From the IMG/VR virus record IMGVR_UViG_3300043219_000435: a DNA stretch of 64,000 nucleotides; one strand, written 5' to 3'. Positions 3,280 through 63,517 of this stretch are shown here, piece after piece (position 1 is the first letter of the stretch; the number at the start of each line of letters is the position of its first letter). The position numbers were made by a program, and so were the translations under genes. The stretch comes from a virus. Its lineage: Duplodnaviria > Heunggongvirae > Uroviricota > Caudoviricetes. Below the pieces are notes generated by a model. The model was not told where the DNA came from. It was given only the letters and a program-made list of their open reading frames with translations, and searched no databases.

Positions 3280-3588
3280 ATGAGTAATGATCACCCCACA
3301 AATGATCCTGAGTTTGGTCTTGATTCAAGATACAGTTCTAATGCAGAATTAACTAAGGATACAATTGCTTTACTAAAGGCAAGATTAAATAGAAATAAGT
3401 TAATGTGTGAATCAGTTAAAAGTATGGCAGTAATTGATGTTGATACTTATGGTTCAGAAGCAGGATCTTTTTGTCCTATGTGTTATGGTAGACCTGATGA
3501 TAAAGGATTTGTTGATAACATATCAAAGATACATCATGAGTTAGACTGTGGTTATATTATAGCCATTGAATTATTAGAAGAAAACTAA
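3280..3588 (+). CDS. small Cys/His protein (CPMCYGRP..DCGY family)
   Basis: Paralog of 4534..4746; shared CPMCYGRP.DKGF.DN...HE.DCGY.IAIELL. Confidence 0.5.
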   Translation: MSNDHPTNDPEFGLDSRYSSNAELTKDTIALLKARLNRNKLMCESVKSMAVIDVDTYGSEAGSFCPMCYGRPDDKGFVDNISKIHHELDCGYIIAIELLEEN

Positions 3589-3602
3589 AGTAGGAATAGT
3601 AT

Positions 3603-3884
3603 ATGATAAAAATAATGTCATTGGCTGTAATATTGATCACTATGTGTTGGTTATGTTTTACCATCAAAATATACCATCTAACCGATAGTTTAGCAGCGAC
3701 TTTAGTTATTGGTTCTTTTGGATTGTTTATATCTTTGTATTTTTGGATAGATTTATATTTTGTAAGTTGTAGATACAGAGCTAGAAACTATATAAATGAA
3801 ACATTGTCCAATAACGACAAACCATCTGCTTCAGCTGCAGATCGAAACATTATGAAAATGATTAAAAACTGGAAACTAAAGTAG
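3603..3884 (+). CDS. small membrane protein
   Basis: Two predicted TM helices; RBS GGAATAG. Confidence 0.45.
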   Translation: MIKIMSLAVILITMCWLCFTIKIYHLTDSLAATLVIGSFGLFISLYFWIDLYFVSCRYRARNYINETLSNNDKPSASAADRNIMKMIKNWKLK

Positions 3885-3890
3885 GTTACG

Positions 3891-4070
3891 ATGAAAGATA
3901 TTAAGAAAGGTTACTACTGGGTGAAGTTTTACAACCATGATGTTATGCAAGTAATGTTGTTTAATGGCAAGAACTTTGAAGGTTTCAAGAGTGACAACTT
4001 AATACCCGATGAGATAGAGGGTTACGAGTATATTGATTACCCACCAGTGGGCTTGTGTAACGACAACTAA
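3891..4070 (+). CDS. hypothetical small protein (59 aa)
   Basis: ATG preceded by AACTAAAGTAGGTTACG; ends within the motif. Confidence 0.3.
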   Translation: MKDIKKGYYWVKFYNHDVMQVMLFNGKNFEGFKSDNLIPDEIEGYEYIDYPPVGLCNDN

Positions 4071-4210
4071 AGTACTTCCCATGGTTCTATATCTTCTTTT
4101 ACTAATATATCGTACATACGGGTTTTTGGATTATATTTGTATGTAGGACCATATTTTTTAACGGGTTTCGGTCCAACTAAAGTATCGAGGTGTTTAACGA
4201 GTTCTGTCAC
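4067..4210 (-). CDS. mini member of the LDTLV...WEV family (47 aa, GTG start)
   Basis: Translation VTELVKHLDTLVGP...EPWEVL; no ATG, so the start is uncertain. Confidence 0.3.
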   Translation of the reverse strand: MTELVKHLDTLVGPKPVKKYGPTYKYNPKTRMYDILVKEDIEPWEVL

Positions 4211-4216
4211 TTTAGT

Positions 4217-4516
4217 TTACTCAAAATTTATTCTGGTTGATCTATATAAGTGACCATCATTTATGTATTTTTGTATGTTATCCAAACCACATGTATATTG
4301 TTTTGAATAAAACCCAACTCTAGTACCAACATGTCCTTTTAAATACAACAATCTTATAACTTGATCAGACCTATCATAAATCAACAATGCAGCAGATCCA
4401 TTGCTCTTTAGTACATAATAAGCAAGTTCAAGTCGTATATGCTCTATCACTTTAGTTGCTGACATAACTACAGGCTGTATGTTATCTTCATGTTCTTCAT
4501 TAATAATTTGTTTCAT
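4217..4516 (-). CDS. hypothetical protein
   Basis: ORF with RBS GAGGGATAA; CACTTTAGTT lies upstream in sense. Confidence 0.45.
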   Translation of the reverse strand: MKQIINEEHEDNIQPVVMSATKVIEHIRLELAYYVLKSNGSAALLIYDRSDQVIRLLYLKGHVGTRVGFYSKQYTCGLDNIQKYINDGHLYRSTRINFE

Positions 4517-4533
4517 TTATCCCTCTTTTTAAA

Positions 4534-4746
4534 CTAAAGTGTTTTTAACAATTCAATTGCTATAGTATATCCACAATCTGGTTCATGTTCTATTTCGGCC
4601 ATGTTATCTGTAAAACCTTTATCATTAGGTCTTCCATAACACATTGGACAATATGAACCTGCTGTAGATCCATTAGTATCAAAATCAATTACAAGCATAT
4701 CTCTAATAGATTCACACATTGTTTTAATTTGTTCTTCATTAGTCAT
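4534..4746 (-). CDS. small Cys/His protein (CPMCYGRP..DCGY family)
   Basis: Paralog of 3280..3588. Confidence 0.5.
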   Translation of the reverse strand: MTNEEQIKTMCESIRDMLVIDFDTNGSTAGSYCPMCYGRPNDKGFTDNMAEIEHEPDCGYTIAIELLKTL

Positions 4747-5631: not shown

Positions 5632-5971
5632 ATTTCCCTCCACATTCGCTGCAGAATTTATGTGGACATCCTGTTGTATAATCTTCATGCCAATGTTCGT
5701 AATTACAGTAAGGACAATTGTATTTAACATTTCTAAAGCTATCTCTTTCTGTAGTTGTAACAATTCTTTTCTTTGTTTCAACTAAAGTATTCATATGATA
5801 TTTTACTTTAGTTGCGAGTTTTTTGGCGCATTCTCCGCAGAATTCTACACCTTTATCTTCATAGCTCAAACTAAAGTAGTCACCGAATTCATCAGATATA
5901 TCATGTCCACACCATGAACCTACAAGTTCATATTCTTTTTTACATTTTTTACATATTGTCATATTTCCCAA
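5624..5971 (-). CDS. zinc-ribbon-rich protein
   Basis: Multiple CxxC pairs (CKKC, CGEC, CPYC, CSEC). Confidence 0.45.
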   Translation of the reverse strand: MGNMTICKKCKKEYELVGSWCGHDISDEFGDYFSLSYEDKGVEFCGECAKKLATKVKYHMNTLVETKKRIVTTTERDSFRNVKYNCPYCNYEHWHEDYTTGCPHKFCSECGGKYE

Positions 5972-6318
5972 CCTTGATATGTTAAATTGTTATTAGGATA
6001 CAAAATCAGTCTACATTTTTCATCTAAAGACATATAATCTGCACCTATACATTTGAAATCTGCAAATGAAGACATATAATCTGTGCTTCTTTTAAAGATA
6101 GAAATGATATTAACTTGATACATCCATACGGTGGTGTTTTTGTATTTTACAATATATATTACATTTTCATCATGAATATCTCTTTCTATGTGGAATTCTT
6201 CAAAAACTAAAGTGAAGTCATCATTATATTTTGTAGCCACCTCTAATATAACATCATACAATTTTTGATGTAATGGAGATCTTATTCCAACTAAAGTATC
6301 GAGATGTTCTGGTGTCAT
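5959..6318 (-). CDS. LDTLV...GWEV family protein
   Basis: MTPEHLDTLVG...YQGWEI; the track ORF extends to 6330 (MGSE-) using an ATG that lies inside the upstream gene's GWE codons. Confidence 0.55.
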   Translation of the reverse strand: MTPEHLDTLVGIRSPLHQKLYDVILEVATKYNDDFTLVFEEFHIERDIHDENVIYIVKYKNTTVWMYQVNIISIFKRSTDYMSSFADFKCIGADYMSLDEKCRLILYPNNNLTYQGWEI

Positions 6319-6575
6319 TTCACTTCCCAACCTTCGTGTTCATCATGTTTTTTATACAATTTTGTTGTGCGGTCGAATACCTTACATAATATATCTTCTA
6401 AAGTATCAAATGCCTTAAACTCTATTACATATACTACACCAAAAGCATGTAAGGAAACCCAATGTTTTTTGTTATTTAAATATTCTATTACTTTAGTTTT
6501 AGCTACATGGAATTCATATAATATAAACGGATCTATATCAGGCACAACTAAAGTGTCCAGGTGTTCCGGTGTCAT
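6315..6575 (-). CDS. LDTLV...GWEV family protein
   Basis: MTPEHLDTLVVP...HEGWEVK; ATGA stop/start overlap with its neighbours. Confidence 0.55.
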   Translation of the reverse strand: MTPEHLDTLVVPDIDPFILYEFHVAKTKVIEYLNNKKHWVSLHAFGVVYVIEFKAFDTLEDILCKVFDRTTKLYKKHDEHEGWEVK

Positions 6576-6733
6576 TTTACTTCCCATCCATTTTCAATAG
6601 GTCTATAATTAGCTTTGTATTTGATATCTAAATAACGGTTATCAACCGTATAAAATCTACAGTATCTCCCTTCAATTATACAATAGCCATAATTATCAGG
6701 TACAACTAAAGTATCGAGGTGATCGGGTGTCAT
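6572..6733 (-). CDS. LDTLV...GWEV family protein (53 aa, absent from the ORF track)
   Basis: MTPDHLDTLVVPDNYGYCIIEG...ENGWEVK; fills the gap between its neighbours and has the same junction repeat. Confidence 0.5.
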   Translation of the reverse strand: MTPDHLDTLVVPDNYGYCIIEGRYCRFYTVDNRYLDIKYKANYRPIENGWEVK

Positions 6734-41181: not shown

Positions 41182-41195
41182 TTTAAATCCTTAAG

Positions 41196-41270
41196 CAGAC
41201 GTGGAAGGAATCGAACCCTCACTAGCGCTGATTTTGGAGATCAGTGTTCTACCGTTTGAACTACACGTCT
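41196..41270 (-). tRNA. tRNA, anticodon CCA (Trp)
   Basis: Minus-sense AGACGTG TA GTTC-AAACGGTA-GAAC A CTGAT-CTCCAAA-ATCAG .. GAGGG-TTCGATT-CCTTC CACGTCT; canonical cloverleaf, no encoded CCA. Confidence 0.7.
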
Positions 41271-41276
41271 ATAATA

Positions 41277-41591
41277 TTAATATTCTATTGTGATTGGGGC
41301 AAAGTCTACGTTCTCTATTTTTCTATCTTTGTCAAGATCTACCTTAGGTCTTTTGTCAAATCTCATAGGAACAATATTTATTTCAATTGGTTGTTGGCCT
41401 TCTATCAAAAATCTCTTGCGTCTTACCTTAAAGTCATTTAGTATATTATTTGTGACACTTTTAATATTACGGTTATCTACAAATGAATTAAATGACACGG
41501 GAACATCGTACCAACATATAAAGCTTTTCATTTCAGAACGATAATATACTTCTCCATCGTCATTTACTTTTACAATTATTCTATATTTCAT
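41277..41591 (-). CDS. MK(Y/T)RI-family small protein
   Basis: MKYRIIVKVNDDGEVYY.. start with RBS AGGAG; the longer track ORF to 41675 would run through the tRNA. Confidence 0.45.
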   Translation of the reverse strand: MKYRIIVKVNDDGEVYYRSEMKSFICWYDVPVSFNSFVDNRNIKSVTNNILNDFKVRRKRFLIEGQQPIEINIVPMRFDKRPKVDLDKDRKIENVDFAPITIEY

Positions 41592-41604
41592 TTTAACTCC
41601 TAAG

Positions 41605-41677
41605 CAGGTGTGACAGGCATCGAACCCGTAACCGTTGGATTTGGAATCCAGTGCTCTGCCAATTGAGCTACACACCT
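41605..41677 (-). tRNA. tRNA, probably anticodon CCA (one anticodon-stem mismatch)
   Basis: Minus-sense AGGTGTG TA GCTC-AATTGGCA-GAGC A CTGGA-TTCCAAA-TCCAA .. ACGGG-TTCGATG-CCTGT CACACCT. Confidence 0.6.
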
Positions 41678-41815
41678 ATTAATTATATTTATATAAAGTA
41701 CCAGATTACTCTGAACACTATTAAACAAGTTACCAGGAAAACCCAATTGAATTTCAATCGAAAATTTCCTATTTCTAATGAGATCCAAGCCCAACGTTTT
41801 TTCATCTTTGCCATT

Positions 41816-42919
41816 TTAAGCCTTTATGTTTATTAATGGAATAACTCGATGTTTTACTTCAACCAATTCTTCCTGTTCTTTCATTACATGGAAAATATCT
41901 TTATATGCAAATGGTGATTCATCAATTGTTCCTTGAATAACTTTTGCTTTAATACCTACCATAGATTCTTTAAAATCATCTAATGATATATTTTCTTTTG
42001 CTTGTCTTCTGCTAAGAATTCTACCGGCACCATGGGAAGATGAATAAAGAGAATCTGGATTTCCTTTACCTTCAACAATAAAAGACCCATCTCTCATATT
42101 CCCAGGTATCACACCTTCCATACCTGCTTCAGCATGTGTTGCACCTTTTCTATGAATCCACAAACCATCTTTAAATGTTGCATGATTATGATTTCTATTA
42201 ATCAATGATCTGAAATTTGCACCACCTTCACAATAATGTTTAATCTCTCTTACAACTCTTTCAAGCATTATCTCTCTATTACGAAGAGCAAACTCAAGAC
42301 AGAAATTAAGATCCATTATATAATTTTCACCTTCAACTGAAGTAACTTCTAAAGAATAATTTCCTTCTCTTGCTTTATTAGAATTTGAAGCAAGTTTCAT
42401 ATAATGTGTAGCAGTTTTATGACCAAGATTTCTAGATCCTGAATGAATAATAATCCAGATATCATCATTCTCATCATATCCTATTTCGATAAAATGATTT
42501 CCACTTCCCAGGGAACCCAATTGTTTTAATCCATTAATATCAAAATTTTCTCGACATGTTTTTGTACATTCAATTGCTTCAGCTTCTTTCCATGTACTTG
42601 AATGATCATTACGATTCATTCCGGTAGGAATTGCTCTATAGATACCATTAAAAATCTTTTCAGTTTGATCTACAATATCGCTCTTTTTAAAAGTGGTTTT
42701 TAAGGCACCTACACCGCAGCCAATATCATAACCAACCCATGCAGGGACAATATGTCCATCAGTGGCTACAACGGCTCCTATGGGTATAGAATAGCCCAAA
42801 TGTGCATCAGGCATCAATGCGCCACGTACAACAAAATCACATTTCATTGCATCATAAAATTGATTCATTGTTTTTGGTTCTATGTATTCAGCAAATACTT
42901 TATGTGGTTTTAATTTCAT
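41816..42919 (-). CDS. rtcB: RNA-splicing ligase RtcB (3'-phosphate/5'-OH RNA ligase)
   Basis: Full-length RtcB fold signatures: ..GCG.. Cys, NRNHNHA, SSSHGAGR, IPGNMRDGSFIVEG. Confidence 0.85.
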   Translation of the reverse strand: MKLKPHKVFAEYIEPKTMNQFYDAMKCDFVVRGALMPDAHLGYSIPIGAVVATDGHIVPAWVGYDIGCGVGALKTTFKKSDIVDQTEKIFNGIYRAIPTGMNRNDHSSTWKEAEAIECTKTCRENFDINGLKQLGSLGSGNHFIEIGYDENDDIWIIIHSGSRNLGHKTATHYMKLASNSNKAREGNYSLEVTSVEGENYIMDLNFCLEFALRNREIMLERVVREIKHYCEGGANFRSLINRNHNHATFKDGLWIHRKGATHAEAGMEGVIPGNMRDGSFIVEGKGNPDSLYSSSHGAGRILSRRQAKENISLDDFKESMVGIKAKVIQGTIDESPFAYKDIFHVMKEQEELVEVKHRVIPLINIKA

Positions 42920-53406: not shown

Positions 53407-53615
53407 TAATTATTACACCATTTTATTTTCCAAGTTGGATCGAAGTTGATAGGATAGAAAAACCATCCATTTTGTATACCATATCCTTCACCTTTCATAT
53501 TTGGATCTGGAACAGCACATGATGAGTGACAATCACCTGGACAGGTGCGTCTATGTTCACAACTATAGCATTCATTCTGTATGGTTCTTGCATCACCTGC
53601 CATAATATTCCTCAA
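53388..53615 (-). CDS. Cys-rich small protein
   Basis: CYSCEHRRTCPGDCHSSC. Confidence 0.35.
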   Translation of the reverse strand: MRNIMAGDARTIQNECYSCEHRRTCPGDCHSSCAVPDPNMKGEGYGIQNGWFFYPINFDPTWKIKWCNNYKNKEA

Positions 53616-54528
53616 TCATATCAATCATTATTTTTTCAATATTATCTCTATCGGGTTCTTCTGGAAAATCTGATTTTTCATAAAGAACTTCAATATCAGC
53701 TTGAAGATCATTTGCCAACTGAAGTAAATCCTCATATTTCCATTTTCCAAATCTAATATCTTTCAATTGATCAGCATCAATTCCAGTACGATCAACAATA
53801 ACTTCACCGGTTTCAAATATTTCTTTAGATTGCTTTAGCAGCCTGATAACATGCATTGCATGTTTAGTATCATAACCTACTTTTAATTCCTGTTTAAGAC
53901 GGTCTACATTACGATTTTTCATGTGAGAGACATAATCATTGTATTCTTGTAATTGCTTCTGATAAAGCTTCTCTGCCTTTACTTGATCATGTATACCAGG
54001 ATTTAAATATTTTTCTGGAATTGATAATATTGCTTTTCCGTGAATTTCAAATTCATCTTTACGTACAGGCTTTACAACGTTCTTATCGAGCCAAGACTTG
54101 TGTCTCTTCAATCGATGCAATTGAGCTTGAGCATAACAAGTATAAGTATTTTTGATTCTTTTTGATATGAATTGATATCGGTTGTCATAGATTTCCATCC
54201 AGATAGAATCACAATAAGTCCAAAATTCAGGAGGTGCAAATAATATATCCAACATATTAGGATTGTTATTAAGCATTAACTTTAAAGCTTTTTGTAATGA
54301 ATAAATTACGTTGTCAGTATCTCGATCTTCGAATTGTTGATAGTCTTTGAACCCCAGGATATATTCTTTGGGAGGTATTGCAATACCTTTATAATCATGA
54401 TCTGATTCGTCACAAAAAGTACCGTATAATCGTGATCCAGTAAGTGTTTTGAAAATACAATTATTAGTTGCTATTTTCTTTTCGTTATCATAGTTTATTA
54501 CATCTTGTTCTGTTTTTAATTCTTTCAT
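53593..54528 (-). CDS. Pol-beta-superfamily nucleotidyltransferase
   Basis: N-terminal LTGSRLYGTFCDESDHDYKGI (hG[GS]..G....D.D minimal NTase motif) plus a helical C-terminal domain. Confidence 0.5.
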   Translation of the reverse strand: MKELKTEQDVINYDNEKKIATNNCIFKTLTGSRLYGTFCDESDHDYKGIAIPPKEYILGFKDYQQFEDRDTDNVIYSLQKALKLMLNNNPNMLDILFAPPEFWTYCDSIWMEIYDNRYQFISKRIKNTYTCYAQAQLHRLKRHKSWLDKNVVKPVRKDEFEIHGKAILSIPEKYLNPGIHDQVKAEKLYQKQLQEYNDYVSHMKNRNVDRLKQELKVGYDTKHAMHVIRLLKQSKEIFETGEVIVDRTGIDADQLKDIRFGKWKYEDLLQLANDLQADIEVLYEKSDFPEEPDRDNIEKIMIDMIEEYYGR

Positions 54529-55070
54529 TTTATACAGTTATCCTTTCTAAAATCTAATATGCATTTGAATTCTCTATCATCAAATAAAAGATTCCATTCT
54601 TCTTTAACATCAATCCACATGTTTAAATAATCACACTGATTTTTAGGTGGCATATATTTACAAGGATCTCTGGCACCCTTTTTTCTATTCTCTGATGCTT
54701 TAACCGCAATCAAATGATTAGGATTTTTTAAATAGTTAGAATATTTTTGTTTCTTTTTTTTATTCCATTCATAAGCACCCGATACATATGCTTCTTTTAA
54801 TGGGACCAAATGGTCAATGTCAAGTTCAGAAGCGTTGTATATAGTATCCCCAGAATAGAAACAAATCCATAAGCCTGTAACAACTTTTCTTCCATCTTCA
54901 GACATGGTAACTTTAGTTGATAAATTTTCTTCTAGCAAAACTTCGTGTCTGGTATTGATTTTATCTTTGTCCATATCTTTCCAACCACCGAATTCTCCAC
55001 GGTTATAACCGTTGCTGAATGCTATTTGGAATAATAATAGTAATGGTATTATATATTTAATATTTTTCAT
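54525..55070 (-). CDS. secreted HNH-type (DUF1524-like) nuclease
   Basis: Signal peptide; DIDHLVPLKEAYVSGAYEWN...NHLIAVKASENRKKG HNH-like core. Confidence 0.45.
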   Translation of the reverse strand: MKNIKYIIPLLLLFQIAFSNGYNRGEFGGWKDMDKDKINTRHEVLLEENLSTKVTMSEDGRKVVTGLWICFYSGDTIYNASELDIDHLVPLKEAYVSGAYEWNKKKKQKYSNYLKNPNHLIAVKASENRKKGARDPCKYMPPKNQCDYLNMWIDVKEEWNLLFDDREFKCILDFRKDNCIK

Positions 55071-58593: not shown

Positions 58594-59211
58594 TTATGGA
58601 TTTGTTTGAAATCCAAATGAGTGCAACAGGTCGCCAAGATCTTCATTTGATCCTTGACCTTGTGGGTGGAATTTCCACGCATCATTCTTTTTGTAAATTT
58701 CAAATACTCTCATGAATTTGAATTGACTATAATCTTCAGTAAGATCATACTCAACCAATTTTTCACCACTTGCATCATCAACAATACTAATTTGAGCGTT
58801 AACAGCTTGACCAAGATTCAAACCTGTCTGACCTTCTTTTTCATCAATTGAAATAAAGAAAGCGATTTTTGCTTTTGGTACTGTAGAAAGTTTTGCAACG
58901 ATTTCTTCAACTGAAAGACCGTCAGTTCCACCGTCAAGAACATCACCTGAGTGCATGATTGCACCTTCAGCAATAATTTTCTTGCCATCAGAATTTACAG
59001 TTTCGGTATTATAAAACAATAAATCCTCTGCACATAACATTTTGTCATTTTCATCAAGCATGATTGCAGATAAATCCAAATCAATTGCTTCAGTCATTGC
59101 AGGACTTTTTCCCCAACTTAAAACAGCTTTTACTTTGTCAAGTCCTGGAAGTGCTTTTGTAAGGTCGATTCTTACACCAGTTTGTGCTTTTTGTAAATTA
59201 ATTACAGTCAT
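58594..59211 (-). CDS. TerD-family protein (TerZ/TerE-like)
   Basis: VRIDLTK..LDLSAIMLD...GDVLDGGTDG...KFMRVFEIYKKNDAWKF matches the TerD fold signature. Confidence 0.7.
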   Translation of the reverse strand: MTVINLQKAQTGVRIDLTKALPGLDKVKAVLSWGKSPAMTEAIDLDLSAIMLDENDKMLCAEDLLFYNTETVNSDGKKIIAEGAIMHSGDVLDGGTDGLSVEEIVAKLSTVPKAKIAFFISIDEKEGQTGLNLGQAVNAQISIVDDASGEKLVEYDLTEDYSQFKFMRVFEIYKKNDAWKFHPQGQGSNEDLGDLLHSFGFQTNP

Positions 59212-59263
59212 ATTATTTCCCTTCCTAAATCATTTGAGGCCGAAGCCCCAAACGATAAGTTAA

Positions 59264-59740
59264 TTAAGCTTCTTCTGTGTCTGCAACGTCTTCAGTTGTT
59301 TCTACAGTAGTTTCAGTAACAGTTTCTTCTACAACAGTTTCTTCTGCTTCAACAGCAGGGAGAAGTGCATAAAGTTCGTCAAGAGCAGGATCAATTGATG
59401 TTGCTTTAGCTTTGATCTCTCTAAGAAGAGCTTGTTCGTTGTCATCTAATGAACCATCACCAGAGATTTTGTCAAACAGATATTTTGCTTCGTCTGCATC
59501 AACAACACCTGGAGTTTTTTCATCAGCAAGAACACCATCAGTAATAGCTTTAACAAATAGAGTTTTGAATGATGAATCGAAGTTGCCACTTTCTGAAACA
59601 GCATCATTGAGATCAAAAAGAACATCCATTTCTTCTTTATCAACAATACCATCTGCATAGATAGTAGTTTCGAGTTGTTTTACTTCTTCTGCGTCAATTT
59701 TACCGTCAGCAAGTATATCTTCTTTTAATTTTTGTAACAT
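59264..59740 (-). CDS. terB: TerB-family protein
   Basis: Repeated DG.ID.EE...L acidic helical motifs typical of TerB. Confidence 0.55.
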   Translation of the reverse strand: MLQKLKEDILADGKIDAEEVKQLETTIYADGIVDKEEMDVLFDLNDAVSESGNFDSSFKTLFVKAITDGVLADEKTPGVVDADEAKYLFDKISGDGSLDDNEQALLREIKAKATSIDPALDELYALLPAVEAEETVVEETVTETTVETTEDVADTEEA

Positions 59741-59808
59741 AAGTTACTCCTTTTTCGTTATTAGGTTAAAAGCGCATTTAACCCTGCGCTACAGGTTAAT
59801 TTTTTTGA

Positions 59809-60489
59809 TTAGTTCATCAATCCACGAAGTCTTCCCATAATCCCACCACCGGAATTACTAGAAGATGAATCTTGACTTGGAGTAGAACCGGAACTATAAT
59901 CTTTTGATGCAATAGCTCGTTCCATTTCTGCAATATTATTATGATTTGTAGCAATACCGAGGGCATTGAATTTCCATTCACCATTGTGACGATATACTTC
60001 ACCAAAGAAAAGGGCTTTATTGTCAGCAACAGATTTATCATCACTCAAAGTAAACTGATATAAATCTTTTTTAGAATCTGCATTTGAAAGACGAATCCAT
60101 GCATTTTTAAGATCTTTGAATTTGAAACCACTACTAAAAGTATTCATTATGATAACACATTTATCAACATCAGCAGCTACAGAATCAAAAATAACATCAA
60201 TTTTTTCATTTGGTGCATCAGCTCTTCCACCACCATCCAAATCGTCACCATGATGCTTAACACCTCTACATGAACTATTAAATTTTTGATATGAAACGGT
60301 TTCTTTAACTTTACCATCAGCTTTAACTAATACAATAGAAGCATCAAGATCGATTGTTCCCATTCCTTTTTTAGCCCAACCCATTCCCAACTGAAGTTTC
60401 TTCAAACCATCATGTTTTTTAGTAAGATCAATTCGTTGACCTTTATCTATTTTCTCTAAATTAATTACACTCATATGCACTCCTACCAA
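59809..60489 (-). CDS. terD: TerD tellurite-resistance-family protein
   Basis: QRIDLTK..IDLDASIVL..HGDDLDGGG...IDVIFDSV...FGEVYRHNGEWKFNALG. Confidence 0.8.
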   Translation of the reverse strand: MVGVHMSVINLEKIDKGQRIDLTKKHDGLKKLQLGMGWAKKGMGTIDLDASIVLVKADGKVKETVSYQKFNSSCRGVKHHGDDLDGGGRADAPNEKIDVIFDSVAADVDKCVIIMNTFSSGFKFKDLKNAWIRLSNADSKKDLYQFTLSDDKSVADNKALFFGEVYRHNGEWKFNALGIATNHNNIAEMERAIASKDYSSGSTPSQDSSSSNSGGGIMGRLRGLMN

Positions 60490-60575: not shown

Positions 60576-60603
60576 ATAAAAAAAAGACACTCAAAAGAGT
60601 GCC
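60576..60603 (-). terminator. rho-independent terminator (minus strand)
   Basis: GGCACTCTTTTGAGTGTC hairpin followed by T8 on the minus strand. Confidence 0.5.
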
Positions 60604-60630
60604 TTATAATCAGACGAATATCATGTACAA

Positions 60631-60713
60631 AGTTTTGATAGGATTTGAACCTATAGTTACTTGGCGTTAACCAAGTAGCCGGTTTATGAGACCAGTGCGT
60701 TTACCAATTTCGC
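60631..60713 (-). ncRNA. tRNA-like element (canonical arm order, CAU anticodon loop, extra variable-arm hairpin, mismatched acceptor)
   Basis: D-arm GCG-AAATTGGTAAA-CGC, anticodon arm CTGGT-CTCATAA-ACCGG, hairpin ACTTGG..CCAAGT, T-arm ATAGG-TTCAAAT-CCTAT; the complementary 5' strand GGTTTTG lies about 35 nt upstream of the D-arm. Confidence 0.4.
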
Positions 60714-60855
60714 TACGATGTAATTGTACATTGCAGTACTGATTAATCAAAACCTGGACTGTAGTTATATAATAATGAAATTATAAAAATTAACTACAGC
60801 CAGGATTTTCAATCATATAAATGGGTAAAAGTCAAAATAAGCGTTTTCTCCCGTT

Positions 60856-60911
60856 GCTCTACCAACTGAGCTACTTGCCCCCGTTATGGGCAAAGATGGA
60901 TTTGAACCACC
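60856..60911 (-). ncRNA. circularly permuted tRNA-like module B (YrlA-type Y-RNA-like)
   Basis: Minus-sense T-arm GGTGG-TTCAAAT-CCATC, acceptor 3' TTTGCCC, loop ATAAC, acceptor 5' GGGCAAG, TA, D-arm GCTC-AGTTGGTA-GAGC; preceded by the GTGTTGCAG..AGATACTTCG box. Confidence 0.5.
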
Positions 60912-61005
60912 GACACACAGCTTTACATACGAAGTATCTTATTCCTGCAACACCATTTAAAACATAAAAAAATTATAGGAAAAAATCAATCAGAGAGAAT
61001 ATCGT

Positions 61006-61061
61006 GCTCTACCAACTGAGCTATTCCCCCATGTTACGGGGAAAGATGGACTCGAACCACC
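61006..61061 (-). ncRNA. circularly permuted tRNA-like module C
   Basis: T-arm GGTGG-TTCGAGT-CCATC, TTTCCCC, G TAACAT, GGGGGAA, TA, GCTC-AGTTGGTA-GAGC; same flanking box. Confidence 0.5.
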
Positions 61062-61218
61062 GGCCACGTCGTTAAAAGCGAAGTAACTCTAATCTGCATC
61101 ACTACAATTTTTTTTATCACTCTCTAATCTTTGATCTACATAATAAAGAACATGATCTCAGAATGATAAAAATCAAATAAATAAATGGGTAAAAATCGTT
61201 AAGAGAATCTATATCGTT

Positions 61219-61275
61219 GCTCTACCAGACTGAGCTATCTCCCCACGTTACGGGGAAAGGTGGATTCGAACCACC
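61219..61275 (-). ncRNA. circularly permuted tRNA-like module D
   Basis: T-arm GGTGG-TTCGAAT-CCACC, TTTCCCC, G TAACGT, GGGGAGA, TA, GCTC-AGTCTGGTA-GAGC; same flanking box. Confidence 0.5.
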
Positions 61276-61381
61276 GACACACGGCTCCTAATGCGAAGTA
61301 ACTCTACACTGCAACACCATTTATTTAATATTTTAAAAATACAATAAAAAGAATGGTAAAAATCAATATAACAAATTTTTT

Positions 61382-61434
61382 TCTCTACCAATTGAGCTAT
61401 ATCCCCCTGGGGGAACAATCGGACTCGAACCGAT
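61382..61434 (-). ncRNA. circularly permuted tRNA-like module E (short loop)
   Basis: T-arm ATCGG-TTCGAGT-CCGAT, TGTTCCC, CCA, GGGGGATA, D-arm GCTC-AATTGGTA-GAGA; variant flanking box. Confidence 0.4.
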
Positions 61435-61541
61435 AACCTTTTGTATTTCAAACAATCGAAGTAAGTCATATTTGCAACACATTCTTTTTATTTTATTCTT
61501 AAAAAATTAGTAGGTAAAAAACGTAATAAGTGGTCTTTTGT

Positions 61542-61611
61542 TTACAATACCGGGATTGAACCAGTAACGTTTGATTAGCTATCAAATGCTCTACCAGTTG
61601 AGCAAATTGTA
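61542..61611 (-). ncRNA. tRNA-like element, canonical order but atypical (A33 in anticodon loop TAGCTAA, terminal acceptor mismatch)
   Basis: D-arm GCTC-AACTGGTA-GAGC, anticodon arm TTTGA-TAGCTAA-TCAAA, T-arm ACTGG-TTCAATC-CCGGT, acceptor GTACAAT/ATTGTAA; preceded by the flanking box. Confidence 0.35.
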
Positions 61612-61797
61612 CGAAGTAACTTATAACTGCAACACTACTAAAAGTTTTAAATTATAATAATCAGGTAAGTATCGAGGATAGTGTCTAGTTTTTTATTTTG
61701 AGAAAAAATTTTTCGAAGTAACTATTCCCTGCAACACTAATTATTATTTTTTATTAATTTCTTATCTATATATAAAGATAATAAAGATCAAAGTTAT

Positions 61798-61833
61798 AGT
61801 CAACCATTATCTTTCAAATGGCTGACTTTTTTA
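61798..61833. terminator. hairpin plus T-run abutting the Ro60 stop codon
   Basis: TAGTCAACCA..TGGCTGACT followed by TTTTTT on the plus strand; orientation relative to a transcript is unclear. Confidence 0.35.
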
Positions 61834-61834
61834 A

Positions 61835-63517
61835 TTATAAATCTACAGCATTTACCATGTCAATAATACCATGCTTCATAGTTTCCATTTCAACTACACT
61901 CTTAAGAAGATTATCACTCCATCCGCTAAGATGCATGTAATTATTATTCTTAGGATCTAACTGAGTAGAACTATCATTTGCTGCCAAGTTAAATTCATAA
62001 ACCTTAATTGACTTATTCACTTTAGTTTGATAAGTTTTAAGATCCTGGAACAAACTTGATCCACCATTATATGATCCGTTAAACTGACAATCAGTGAATA
62101 CGAACATTTGATCAACATGTATATTTCGCTTTGTAATATCTTGCATTACAGAAGCAAAATTTGTTGAATGACCAACTGAAGTACTCATGATCTGTTTAAC
62201 TCGATCAAGAGGATTATGTTTACGTTCATCAACTGCTACTATTTTCTCATGATTACCGAAACCATAAATAATTGATTTATCACAATACTGTTGCGCCAAT
62301 GAACCCATAACAGCACCGATTTCCATATAAGTAACAGATCCTTCTGCAGACAAAAGAGTATTCATAGAAGCTGACAAATCAACAGCAATTACGGTATTAC
62401 CATTCATCTTTGGTACATTCTTACCGGAATGCCATAATGCTTTATTAAGAGCACTTAAATAACGATCCCTGACAGTTCTAGTGTTTTCAGTGCCAGACCC
62501 ACCATATTTAGAATCGAAGGGATCTGTATTTTTATGTCCCCAACCACTCGTATTATATCCAGAGTTTCCACCAATAGCTTTATACGCACTCCAATATCTG
62601 AAAGGGAATTGTTTGCCTTTTTCTACTGCAGTCTCATTGGATAAAAACTGAAGTGCCATTCTATGTGCTTCTTCTGACAAACCACTTTCAATGATGTTAC
62701 GAATATTTCTTAACAAAGCCATATAAGGAAGTTTTTTAGCAAGAATTAATTGTTCCCAATTATCTTTTTTGGCAGCATCAACTTCTTTTTTCACTTCAGT
62801 TTTAGTCTTACCTTTTTTATCAATCTGACCGGCACCTGAAATTTTATTTTCCCAGGTATTTGCTTTCTCAAGAGTACCGTTCATAAATTTCTTCCAAAGC
62901 TCAGCTTGATCAGAATCAATTGGTTTAGGTCTAAGAATTCTGAAAATATCTCTCAATTTAACTTCTTTCTTAGCAGCTTTGTATTTGTCCAACTGATAAG
63001 CATCAAATTTTGAAATAGAATTTTGTAAACCAATTCTCAATTGTTTTGAAAGTTTTTTCTTGATATGTCTAGAACCATGTACAGTTGTTTTTTCTTTACT
63101 GTAATTATAAATCAAGTAAGAGATAATTTCTGTAATATCATCAACACGACAAGTAACTCTTTCAGCAACAGTTTTAACAACTGAAGTATCAACATCTTCT
63201 TTTTCATTTAACTTAGAAACAATTCTTGAAAGTTCCGCAGTCAATACATGAGAAACACTTCTTAGATTAAACTTTTCACGGCTTAATACAGCAAGTTTAG
63301 CAAGAAATACAGGATCTTCTTTACCGACTTTGTCGATAAGTTTATGTAGTTCTTTATCAGATTTGTATCCGCTTTTATAAAATTTATCTTGACCATAGAA
63401 ACACGTTAAAACTCTATCACACAAATCTTGATAGATAGATTTTTCAAATGCTTTTACTCCATCACATGAAGTAGTCATTTTACGTGTTTTTTTCGGAGTG
63501 GTATTAAACTTAGACAT
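61835..63517 (-). CDS. rsr: Ro60/TROVE-domain protein (Rsr orthologue) with a C-terminal vWA/MIDAS domain
   Basis: 560 aa; a helical TROVE-like N-terminal two-thirds and a C-terminal VIAVDLSASM (DxSxS MIDAS)...T...D vWA; adjacent to the tRNA-like RNA cluster, with rtcB in the same genome region. Confidence 0.6.
   Translation of the reverse strand: MSKFNTTPKKTRKMTTSCDGVKAFEKSIYQDLCDRVLTCFYGQDKFYKSGYKSDKELHKLIDKVGKEDPVFLAKLAVLSREKFNLRSVSHVLTAELSRIVSKLNEKEDVDTSVVKTVAERVTCRVDDITEIISYLIYNYSKEKTTVHGSRHIKKKLSKQLRIGLQNSISKFDAYQLDKYKAAKKEVKLRDIFRILRPKPIDSDQAELWKKFMNGTLEKANTWENKISGAGQIDKKGKTKTEVKKEVDAAKKDNWEQLILAKKLPYMALLRNIRNIIESGLSEEAHRMALQFLSNETAVEKGKQFPFRYWSAYKAIGGNSGYNTSGWGHKNTDPFDSKYGGSGTENTRTVRDRYLSALNKALWHSGKNVPKMNGNTVIAVDLSASMNTLLSAEGSVTYMEIGAVMGSLAQQYCDKSIIYGFGNHEKIVAVDERKHNPLDRVKQIMSTSVGHSTNFASVMQDITKRNIHVDQMFVFTDCQFNGSYNGGSSLFQDLKTYQTKVNKSIKVYEFNLAANDSSTQLDPKNNNYMHLSGWSDNLLKSVVEMETMKHGIIDMVNAVDL

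What the first reader, a model, noticed from the sequence alone, without database searches (positions are those of the whole stretch)
60900..61740. Conserved box CGAAGTAACT-N5-7-CTGCAACAC (plus strand) repeated six times, flanking every tRNA-like module
The sequence cgaagtatcttattcctgcaacacc (60920-60945) recurs, with variants, at 61080-61105, 61295-61318, 61455-61480, 61612-61635 and 61713-61737. In minus sense (GTGTTGCAG-N-AGTTACTTCG) it sits 15-25 nt upstream of each module's T-arm. The last copy (61713-61737) has no module next to it. A second conserved block, TTTTACCCATTTAT (plus-strand ATAAATGGGTAAAA at about 60818, 61183 and 61355), follows the D-arm side. Each box could be a promoter for its RNA gene, or the 5' strand of the terminal helix of a longer (about 150-330-nt) Y-like RNA. 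The GTGTTGCAG of module B can pair through nine base pairs (with G-U) with CTGCAATGT at 60734-60742, which would enclose the large hairpin at 60756-60806.
Basis: seen in the sequence. Interest (0 to 1): 0.6.

Follow-up and report, generated by a model that had tools for sequence, protein, structure and literature searches.

The report
Phage Y RNA array beside Ro60 gene
The repeated box is the conserved 5' strand of a stem shared by seven small Y-type RNAs, most carrying tRNA-like parts, encoded in a row directly after a phage gene for a Ro60 RNA-binding protein; this is a known kind of RNA-protein pair, here in an unusually large and sequence-divergent form.

Summary
GTGTTGCAG-N5-AGTTACTTCG occurs six times, all on the minus strand (0.02 expected), and a seventh, degenerate copy precedes the last tRNA-like element.

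The box is not a promoter. It is the 5' half of an RNA stem: last P1 pair, a 1-nt bulge, a 2-bp step, a UGCA internal loop, the 8-nt 5' strand of helix P2, then an unpaired UUACUUCG junction.

In 27 units from five phage-like contigs, 96% of stem positions pair (59% when shuffled) and all 16 pairs show compensatory changes. The unpaired UGCA and UACUUC stay invariant.

The array of seven units lies directly downstream of a Ro60/Rsr gene on the same strand, between sigma-70-like promoters and one terminator. One unit has no module, one holds a full tRNA-like cloverleaf, four hold permuted YrlA-type modules, and one holds an acceptor-less tRNA.

Across other phage Rsr loci the equivalent box is GA(A/U)GC(A/G)G-N10-UAC(U/A)UC. 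This contains the published CGAA(G) Ro60-binding motif, so the window's box is a derived form that has lost CGAA.

Verdict: a Y RNA (YrlA-like) array, a new variant of a known kind, of moderate interest.

The parts
61835..63517 (-). rsr: Ro60/Rsr ortholog (560 aa, TROVE + Ro60 vWA domains), directly upstream of the array on the same strand
   Evidence: Pfam TROVE 4e-23 and vWA_Ro60 8e-11. PHROG 850 'RNA-binding protein' 7e-53. PDB hits 9L5Y/9KOP (Thermus phage Ro60) 2e-13 and 1YVP (X. laevis Ro60) 2e-5.
61834..61863 (-). Sigma-70-like promoter TTGACA-18-TATAAT overlapping the end of rsr
   Evidence: 12 of 12 consensus matches. This is a consensus match only.
61775..61803 (-). Sigma-70-like promoter TTGACT-17-TATCTT, about 30 nt upstream of unit 1
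   Evidence: A TTGAC(A/T)-17-TAnnnT site sits at the equivalent place in L001, L248 and L250.
61659..61742 (-). Unit 1: module-less Y-type stem-loop (box 61737-61714; 32-nt A/U-rich loop)
   Evidence: 15 of 16 stem pairs. Covariance model R1 scores 53 bits, E 5e-12. The syntenic L001 unit has 4 compensated pairs.
61508..61640 (-). Unit 2: the same stem enclosing a complete, non-permuted tRNA-like cloverleaf at 61612-61540 (box 61635-61612 abuts its 5' end)
   Evidence: ARAGORN calls tRNA-Ser(GCU); Rfam tRNA 45.2 bits. It is atypical: A at position 33, no long variable arm, and a 1-72 mismatch (alignment). Stem 15 of 16 pairs.
61350..61485 (-). Unit 3: YrlA-type unit (T-arm, closed acceptor-like hairpin, D-arm); box 61480-61457
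   Evidence: Rfam YrlA 25 bits, sub-threshold. Stem 16 of 16 pairs. The single-sequence MFE fold reproduces the stem, as does RNAalifold.
61183..61322 (-). Unit 4: YrlA-type unit; box 61317-61294
   Evidence: Rfam YrlA 38 bits against a gathering score of 69. Stem 14 of 16 pairs. RNAalifold agrees.
60973..61107 (-). Unit 5: YrlA-type unit; box 61102-61079 (GUGAUGCAG variant, with P1b GA/UC)
   Evidence: Rfam YrlA 29 bits. Stem 16 of 16 pairs. The MFE fold reproduces the stem.
60819..60958 (-). Unit 6: YrlA-type unit; box 60953-60930
   Evidence: Rfam YrlA 32 bits. Stem 16 of 16 pairs. The MFE fold reproduces the stem.
60753..60804 (-). Long spacer hairpin between units 6 and 7; role unknown (possibly a processing site)
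   Evidence: MFE -21.5 kcal/mol, z = -6.5. By eye (no alignment was computed), the base of the hairpin (AAAAUCCUGG.../...CCAGGUUUU) is conserved in L001 at about 6536-6600 while the top of the stem differs.
60608..60744 (-). Unit 7: the same stem enclosing an acceptor-less tRNA-like module (D-arm, CAU anticodon arm, long variable arm, T-arm); degenerate box 60739-60716
   Evidence: Rfam tRNA 39 bits over model positions 7-64 only. Stem 16 of 16 pairs. MFE equals the centroid and reproduces the stem, z = -3.1.
60584..60605 (-). Intrinsic terminator-like hairpin plus U-run ending the array
   Evidence: Read by eye, equivalent G+C hairpin + T-run sequences follow the arrays in L001, L248 and L250; no terminator scan was run on those loci.

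Best explanation
The region 61742-60608 (minus strand) encodes seven tandem Y RNA-type small RNAs. They are probably made as one precursor from sigma-70-type promoters at the end of the Ro60/Rsr gene and stopped by a single terminator.

Every unit has the same closing stem. From the outside in: helix P1; a single bulged nucleotide on the 5' strand; a 2-bp step (P1b); an asymmetric internal loop (5' UGCA opposite a 7-nt G+U-rich 3' strand); an 8-bp helix P2; and an unpaired junction UUACUUCG. The stem then opens into a variable insert.

The TTTTACC(C)ATTTAT block is the 3' loop, P1b and P1 of the same unit.

Inferred, not shown: this stem is the docking site for the adjacent Rsr protein, as in other Y RNAs. 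It is a derived form of the canonical CGAA(G) Ro60-binding motif followed by the YrlA 'YUAY' element. The different inserts would tether Rsr to, or bait, tRNA-recognising factors such as nucleases or RNA repair enzymes during infection.
For: Six exact or near-exact boxes plus a seventh degenerate copy, all on one strand.

Rsr lies directly upstream on the same strand.

The four central modules give sub-threshold YrlA matches with T-arm, AS hairpin and D-arm.

Stem covariation in 27 units from the window, L001, L002, L248 and L250: 96.3% of positions pair against 58.9% in shuffles (0 of 500 reach it) and 38-50% when partners are slid; 16 of 16 pairs show changes on both sides.

RNAalifold finds the same stem without guidance, both on the excised stems and on natural full-length units.

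Cognate 5'/3' strands give 15.4 of 16 pairs against 9.2 +/- 2.1 for non-cognate strands. Within the window alone the figures are 15.4 against 9.7.

Between syntenic units of the window and L001 (Rsr 72% identical), 24 of 96 stem pairs changed on both sides and stayed paired, while the unpaired UGCA and junction are 68 of 72 identical.

Promoter-like sites stand at the head of the arrays in four contigs. A terminator-like site follows the window's array.

Link to Rsr and to the known motif. In 115 distinct Rsr loci, stem + UAC(U/A)UC units number 173 on the rsr strand against 13 on the other strand; control loci give 18 and 23. GA[AT]GC[AG]G is followed by TAC[TA]TC in 177 cases on the rsr strand (164 at exactly N10), against 2 of 758 in controls. 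The commonest form, GAAGCGG, carries the published CGAA / GNCGAAN0-1G motif (PMC4201824, PMC12135203). Intermediates such as GAUGCGG, GAUGCAG and GUGAUGCAG lead to the window's GUGUUGCAG.
Against: No transcript or binding data exist for this sequence.

The defining YrlA motif GNCGAAN0-1G is absent from all seven window units. Rfam YrlA scores (25-38 bits) are far below the gathering score of 69.

The bulged base is U, C or A, not the conserved C of animal Y RNAs. P2 is 2 nt shorter than in the common phage form.

Single-sequence folding z-scores are modest, from -0.5 to -3.1.

The 3' partners in the curated alignment were located by a search that maximises pairing. This is mitigated by the independent RNAalifold result on a plain MAFFT alignment.

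In two related contigs (L245, L247) Rsr has only one unit, about 3 kb away, and no adjacent array.
Confidence: 0.8

Rival explanations
1. Each box is a promoter (host sigma factor or phage RNA polymerase) that drives its own small RNA gene.
For: A roughly 24-nt conserved box repeated upstream of each gene is how phage-polymerase promoters look. Several weak (9 of 12) sigma-70-like matches lie between units.
Against: The variable N5 inside the box and the 6+ nt upstream of it covary with sequence beyond the module. Both must therefore be in the RNA.

The box occurs nowhere else in the 64 kb.

Stronger, positionally conserved sigma-70-like sites sit at the head of the arrays.

The number of promoter-like matches in the region is no higher than in shuffles: 20 against 16.3 +/- 4.4.
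Confidence: 0.03
2. The stem is mainly an RNA-processing signal. It would be a double-stranded or single-stranded ribonuclease site that releases tRNA-like RNAs from a precursor, and would not be a protein-docking site kept in the mature RNA.
For: The units appear to be co-transcribed and must be separated. Known bacterial Y RNAs are cut from polycistronic precursors, and M. smegmatis YrlA is cut by RNase P (PMC4201824). In unit 2 the box abuts the tRNA 5' end.
Against: Invariant unpaired motifs flanking a covarying helix are typical of a specific protein site. The same bipartite motif is tied to Rsr genes by strand and distance. Module-less units keep the whole stem and have nothing to release.
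Confidence: 0.1
3. The stem binds a protein other than Rsr (for example an RNA repair enzyme), and the adjacency to rsr is only operon organisation.
For: The window also encodes RtcB (41816-42919) and an RlaP nucleotidyltransferase (53593-54528). The canonical CGAA motif is missing.
Against: The motif pair tracks Rsr genes across about 78 of 115 loci with very different gene neighbourhoods. The commonest form contains the motif reported to mediate Ro60 binding (PMC4201824, PMC12135203). All loci examined were chosen because they contain Rsr, so independence from Rsr was not tested.
Confidence: 0.06
4. The boxes are merely remnants of a recent tandem duplication and are under no selection of their own.
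For: The units are tandem and similar in length.
Against: The helices and modules have diverged almost completely between units. Meanwhile UGCA and UACUUC are invariant across contigs whose Rsr proteins are only 31-72% identical.
Confidence: 0.01

Closest known systems
YrlA (Y RNA-like A; Rfam RF02553; Chen et al. 2014, PMC4201824)
   Same: Encoded next to rsr on the same strand. The 5' and 3' ends form a two-helix stem with an internal loop. A permuted tRNA-like module (T-arm, closed acceptor-like hairpin, D-arm) is present in units 3-6. A YUAY-type element (UUAC/AUAC) follows the second helix. In the Rfam consensus the upper-case 5' elements AUGC (loop) and CUA (after helix 2) occupy the places of UGCA and UAC here.
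   Different: There is no GNCGAAN0-1G motif. Scores are 25-38 bits against a gathering score of 69. The stem has a bulge plus a covarying 2-bp step. There are seven units rather than one or two. Three units carry other inserts: none, a complete cloverleaf, and an acceptor-less tRNA.
Phage Y RNA-like RNAs with the CGAA motif (mycobacteriophages, Bacillus phage G, CcrColossus: PMC4201824; Thermus phage phiLo Yrl1/Yrl2: PMC12135203)
   Same: Small stem-bulge-stem RNAs beside a phage Ro60 gene. In most phage Rsr loci sampled here the 5' strand reads GAAGCGG-N10-UACUUC, the same layout as the window's box. Phage G has five such units upstream of gp540.
   Different: In the window's clade GAAGCGG is replaced by N-bulge + 2 bp + UGCA (UGUA in L002), and P2 is 2 nt shorter. 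The arrays are longer, at 6-9 or more units.
Metazoan Y RNAs (Ro60-binding lower stem with bulged C9)
   Same: A stem formed by the two RNA ends. A single bulged nucleotide on the 5' strand is followed by two base pairs and an internal loop before the upper helix. The description of the conserved bulged C as the Ro60 site is in PMC4030889; the detailed hY1 pairing is from my own recollection.
   Different: There is no sequence similarity: no Rfam Y_RNA match at E<=10. The bulged base is not conserved as C. The loop holds tRNA-like modules.
tRNA gene arrays of large phages
   Same: Tandem tRNA-shaped elements, co-oriented, in a large phage-like contig. Unit 2 passes tRNA detectors.
   Different: Only one of the seven is a complete cloverleaf, and it is atypical. 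All seven are enclosed in an extra conserved stem that ordinary tRNA genes lack.

Membership tests
YrlA / bacterial Y RNA (Chen et al. 2014; RF02553) | Encoded within about 4 kb of a Ro60/Rsr (TROVE) gene, on the same strand | tested here: met
   The array starts 93 nt after the rsr stop codon, on the same strand.
YrlA / bacterial Y RNA (Chen et al. 2014; RF02553) | tRNA-like module in the order T-arm, closed acceptor-like stem-loop, D-arm | tested here: met
   Present in units 3-6 (alignments; RNAalifold). Not present in units 1, 2 and 7.
YrlA / bacterial Y RNA (Chen et al. 2014; RF02553) | GNCGAAN0-1G motif near the 5' end (proposed Rsr contact) | tested here: not met
   The 5' strands read N-GU/GA/AC-UGCA-G.... 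CGAA appears only by chance where the junction runs into an A-run (units without a module). Related loci show graded intermediates from GAAGCGG.
YrlA / bacterial Y RNA (Chen et al. 2014; RF02553) | Score at or above Rfam's gathering threshold (69 bits) | tested here: not met
   Best scores are 38, 32.3, 29.1 and 25 bits. There are no YrlA hits at the gathering threshold in the window.
YrlA / bacterial Y RNA (Chen et al. 2014; RF02553) | Conserved YUAY after the stem, at the start of the variable region | tested here: met
   UUAC or AUAC in all seven units. U23, A24 and C25 of the alignment are invariant in 27 units.
YrlA / bacterial Y RNA (Chen et al. 2014; RF02553) | Bound by Rsr in vivo; carries tRNA-type modifications | not testable with these tools
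   Requires immunoprecipitation and modification mapping.
Y RNA in the broad sense | Terminal stem formed by the 5' and 3' ends, interrupted by a bulge or internal loop | tested here: met
   96.3% paired, and 16 of 16 pairs have compensatory changes. The consensus fold was obtained independently.
Functional tRNA (unit 2) | Canonical cloverleaf with U33, identity elements for its anticodon, and a paired 1-72 | tested here: inconclusive
   Detected as a tRNA (45.2 bits; ARAGORN Ser-GCU). However, it has A33, no long variable arm for a Ser anticodon, and a G1-A72 mismatch (alignment).
Promoter (sigma-70 or phage polymerase) as the role of the box | Lies upstream of the transcript start, with no RNA-level constraint on it or on sequence 5' of it | tested here: not met
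   Box positions and the upstream 6 nt covary with downstream partners.

The most novel reading that the evidence does not exclude
The conserved stem may be a portable Ro60-docking cassette that has captured different tRNA-derived inserts: permuted YrlA-type, acceptor-less tRNA, a full but uncharged-looking cloverleaf, or none. The phage would then produce a battery of Ro60-tethered tRNA mimics, each aimed at a different host tRNA-recognising enzyme or anticodon nuclease. In this clade Rsr and its RNAs would have co-evolved away from the canonical CGAA contact to a bulge/UGCA/UACUUC site. The non-permuted and acceptor-less units would be living intermediates in the proposed origin of YrlA from tRNA transcripts.
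Probability: 0.2. Interest if true: 0.65.

Novelty: new variant of a known kind. Interest (0 to 1): 0.4.

Why it matters
Y RNAs tether Ro60 to effector proteins, and what the tRNA-like module recruits is still unknown. This array offers seven versions of the same docking stem with four kinds of insert, next to the protein, in a phage that also carries RtcB and RlaP RNA-repair genes.

It shows that the CGAA motif, which has been used to recognise Ro60-binding RNAs, can be replaced while the architecture and a second motif (UACUUC) persist. CGAA-based or Rfam-based searches will therefore miss such RNAs.

The 84-nt module-less unit 1 is a compact substrate for testing what a Ro60 ortholog actually reads in its RNA.

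Tried and rejected
1. An exact scan of viral contigs for the full box gave 0 hits. A looser 14-base pattern returned only single chance matches; those loci were reused as a negative control.

2. Covariance model R1, built from module-excised stems, recovers short units well (53-59 bits) but loses most units with 80-90-nt inserts. The surveys were therefore done with explicit pairing scans.

3. An Rfam gathering-threshold scan of 16 other phage Rsr loci found no YrlA match. Rfam therefore cannot be used to survey phage Y RNAs.

4. The Rsr clade at 47% identity (L245, L247) has no adjacent array, only one unit about 3 kb upstream. P0016 had no DNA available.

5. I tested whether the junction CUUC pairs with the canonical GAAG, since the reverse complement of the junction reads CGAAG. 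There is no covariation between the flanking or central positions, so this was rejected.

6. Both segments are 5' strands with their own partners.

7. blastn of the array against cultured phages found only T-arm-sized matches.

8. The mechanical ORF 61248-61469 (73 aa) overlaps units 3 and 4 and is taken as spurious.

Full report
**Observation.** The box is real. GTGTTGCAG-N5-AGTTACTTCG (allowing up to 3 mismatches) occurs six times in the window and nowhere else. All copies are on the minus strand, at 60953-60930, 61102-61079, 61317-61294, 61480-61457, 61635-61612 and 61737-61714. Shuffles give 0.02 expected. The spacer is always 5 nt. A seventh, degenerate copy (…ACUGCAAUGUACAAUUACAUCG, 60739-60716) precedes the last tRNA-like element.

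**Context.** The ORF directly upstream on the same strand (63517-61835, 560 aa) is a Ro60/Rsr ortholog.
- Pfam: TROVE 4e-23 and Ro60-type vWA 8e-11.
- PHROG 850: 7e-53.
- PDB: Thermus phage Ro60 (9L5Y/9KOP) at 2e-13 and X. laevis Ro60 (1YVP) at 2e-5.

The window looks like part of a large phage. It encodes an NAD-dependent DNA ligase, RtcB, an RlaP nucleotidyltransferase and TerD/TerB proteins. The closest Rsr relatives lie on viral contigs of 157-212 kb and in a 635-kb uncultured phage.

Rfam at a relaxed threshold matches four of the 'modules' to YrlA, the bacterial Y RNA with a permuted tRNA-like domain. Scores are 25-38 bits, below the gathering score of 69. The other two modules match tRNA: one fully, one without an acceptor stem.

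**Anatomy.** Duplex prediction between each box region and its downstream sequence shows one architecture in all seven units. An explicit pairing search agrees. From 5' to 3' each unit has:
- helix P1 (6-13 bp);
- one bulged nucleotide on the 5' strand;
- a 2-bp step, P1b;
- an internal loop with UGCA on the 5' side and a 7-nt G+U-rich strand (typically GAUUUUU) on the 3' side;
- an 8-bp helix, P2;
- an unpaired junction, UUACUUCG;
- a variable insert.

The 24-nt box is therefore the last P1 base, the bulge, P1b, UGCA, the P2 5' strand (the 'N5' plus flanking bases) and the junction.

Unit coordinates on the minus strand:

| Unit | Coordinates | Insert |
|---|---|---|
| U1 | 61742-61659 | none |
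| U2 | 61640-61508 | complete cloverleaf |
| U3 | 61485-61350 | YrlA-type |
| U4 | 61322-61183 | YrlA-type |
| U5 | 61107-60973 | YrlA-type |
| U6 | 60958-60819 | YrlA-type |
| U7 | 60744-60608 | acceptor-less tRNA with a long variable arm |

**Relatives.** The Rsr protein led to homologous arrays on other contigs.
- L001: a 212-kb viral contig, Rsr 72% identical, with six syntenic units downstream of rsr.
- L002: 157 kb, Rsr 31% identical, with at least five units upstream of rsr carrying UGUA in place of UGCA.
- L248 and L250: Rsr 41% and 45% identical, with 6 and 9 or more units downstream.

**Covariation.** I aligned 27 stems with the inserts excised; the alignment is gapless.
- 96.3% of stem positions form standard pairs, against 58.9 +/- 1.7% in shuffles (0 of 500 reach the observed value).
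- When partners are slid by 1-3 columns, only 38-50% pair.
- All 16 pairs show changes on both sides.
- P1b alone switches among GU/AC, GA/UC, AG/CU, AC/GU and GC/GC.

RNAalifold returns the same structure on that alignment. More importantly, it returns it on a plain MAFFT alignment of 17 natural full-length units, where it also finds the T-arm, the acceptor-like hairpin and the D-arm.

Cognate strands give 15.4 of 16 pairs, against 9.2 +/- 2.1 for non-cognate combinations. Within the window alone the figures are 15.4 against 9.7.

Between syntenic units of the window and L001, 24 of 96 stem pairs changed on both sides and remained paired. The unpaired UGCA plus junction are 68 of 72 identical. 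This pattern is expected for an RNA helix flanked by sequence-specific single-stranded contacts. It excludes the promoter reading, because sequence 5' of the box belongs to the helix.

**Transcription.**
- A perfect TTGACA-18-TATAAT overlaps the end of rsr (61863-61834).
- A TTGACT-17-TATCTT lies about 30 nt before unit 1. An equivalent TTGAC(A/T)-17-TAnnnT site precedes the first unit in L001, L248 and L250.
- A single terminator-like hairpin follows unit 7, at 60605-60584.

I infer one precursor that is processed into units, as reported for bacterial Y RNAs (PMC4201824). This step is inferred, not shown.

**Relation to known Y RNAs.** Chen et al. (PMC4201824) define YrlA by four features: proximity to rsr on the same strand, a 5' GNCGAAN0-1G motif thought to contact Rsr, a conserved YUAY, and the T/AS/D module. 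The Thermus phage study (PMC12135203) used the 'CGAA motif' to find Ro60 partners. The window's units lack CGAA.

I scanned all Rsr loci fetched (115 distinct) for a stem of this geometry followed by UAC(U/A)UC.
- There are 173 strong units on the rsr strand and 13 on the opposite strand. Unrelated control loci give 18 and 23.
- 78 of the 115 loci carry at least one strong unit.
- The consensus 5' of P2 in those units is GAAGCGG.

The converse also holds. GA[AT]GC[AG]G is followed by TAC[TA]TC in 177 cases on the rsr strand, 164 of them at exactly N10, against 2 of 758 in controls.

Bacillus phage G, already listed as carrying Y RNA-like RNAs, has five such units in the 1-kb gap upstream of its Rsr gene.

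The forms GAAGCGG, GAUGCGG, GAUGCAG, GUGAUGCAG (unit 5) and GUGUUGCAG (the other window units) make a graded series. The box is therefore a clade-specific derivative of the general phage Y RNA 5' strand: the Ro60 motif, then helix 2, then YUAY. In this derivative CGAA has been lost, a bulge plus a covarying 2-bp step has appeared, and P2 is 2 nt shorter.

The layout of helix, single 5' bulge, two pairs, internal loop and upper helix also recalls the Ro60 site of animal Y RNAs, with its bulged C9 (PMC4030889). That resemblance is structural only.

**Mechanism (inferred).** The stem docks Rsr through the invariant UGCA, UACUUC and bulge geometry. Ro60 is reported to read mainly the 5' strand (PMC4201824). 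The inserts present different tRNA-shaped surfaces. In the S. Typhimurium YrlA structure the conserved UA of YUAY kinks the stem below the tRNA-like domain (bioRxiv 10.1101/312249), so the junction may act as such a hinge.

What the modules recruit is unknown, as it is for YrlA in general. Unit 2 has A33, a Ser anticodon without a long variable arm, and a 1-72 mismatch. Unit 7 has no acceptor stem. Both look like mimics rather than decoding tRNAs.

**Rejected ideas.**
- *Junction pairing with GAAG.* Pairing of the junction CUUC with the canonical GAAG shows no covariation.
- *Long-range pairing of box B with 60734-60742.* It is possible only because both segments are copies of a box with a palindromic core, and each has its own supported partner.
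- *Box as promoter.* Rejected as above.
- *Recent tandem duplication without selection.* Contradicted by invariant motifs amid fully diverged helices, across Rsr proteins only 31-72% identical.

**Limits.**
- There are no expression or binding data.
- All loci surveyed were selected for having Rsr, so dependence on Rsr is supported by strand and position but has not been tested against Rsr-free genomes.
- The curated 3' partners were chosen by a pairing search, although an unguided consensus fold agrees.
- Single-sequence z-scores are modest, from -0.5 to -3.1.

**Verdict.** This is a genuine, previously unannotated array of seven Y RNA-type genes beside a phage Ro60 gene. The box is the conserved 5' strand of their Ro60-type stem. 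It is a new variant of a known kind, of moderate interest.

Noticed in passing
window 60753-60804 (minus); L001 about 6536-6600: A very stable hairpin (-21.5 kcal/mol, z = -6.5) lies between units 6 and 7. By eye, its base (AAAAUCCUGG / CCAGGUUUU) is conserved in L001 while the upper stem has different but still complementary sequence. It may be a processing site or a separate small RNA.
   Followed up: partly
window 41195-42919, 53593-55070, 58594-60489: The window carries an RNA-repair and conflict gene set. RtcB ligase (41816-42919, minus) is flanked by two tRNA-Trp genes (41195-41270, 41604-41677). There are also an RlaP nucleotidyltransferase (53593-54528), a GmrSD_C nuclease-domain protein (54525-55070), and two TerD genes plus a TerB-like gene directly downstream of the Y RNA array. 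A TerD-like ORF (read by eye, not scanned) also follows the array in L001.
   Followed up: partly
L254 (Bacillus phage G, NC_023719.1) about 3975-4690 of the locus (record about 406660-407380): Five unannotated stem units with GA(A/U)GCGG-N10-UUACUUC lie in the 1-kb gap upstream of the Rsr gene gp540. Most have no T or D arms.
   Followed up: partly
115 Rsr loci (L001-L044, L165-L254): A bipartite motif, GA(A/U)GC(A/G)G-N10-UAC(U/A)UC, flanks the 5' strand of a 9-bp helix. It is common on the rsr strand of phage Rsr loci: 177 occurrences, against 2 of 758 in controls. The UAC(U/A)UC half is more extended than the published 'YUAY', and I did not find it described in the papers I read.
   Followed up: partly
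L248 about 5830-6000 and L250 about 3440-3800: A conserved non-unit segment (aagcggtcgctggcatcgtatct...ggctcatcgatagcc...) lies inside both Y RNA arrays. In L250 it has no Rfam match at E<=0.01 (L248 was not scanned). It may be another structured RNA.
   Followed up: partly
L040 1632-2275; L001 1313-1664: A ROOL RNA (RF03087, 284 bits) lies about 1.7 kb upstream of the Rsr gene in L040. A tmRNA (160 bits) lies upstream of rsr in L001. Many phage Rsr genes sit inside tRNA arrays.
   Followed up: no
window 61108-61182 (minus): The spacer between units 4 and 5 is about 75 nt longer than the other spacers. By eye (not folded), it contains an inverted repeat (UUUUUAUCAUUCU ... AGAGAGUGAUAAAAA) whose 3' arm runs into P1 of unit 5.
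   Followed up: no
window 61248-61469 (minus): A mechanical 73-aa ORF overlaps units 3 and 4. It is almost certainly not a gene.
   Followed up: no
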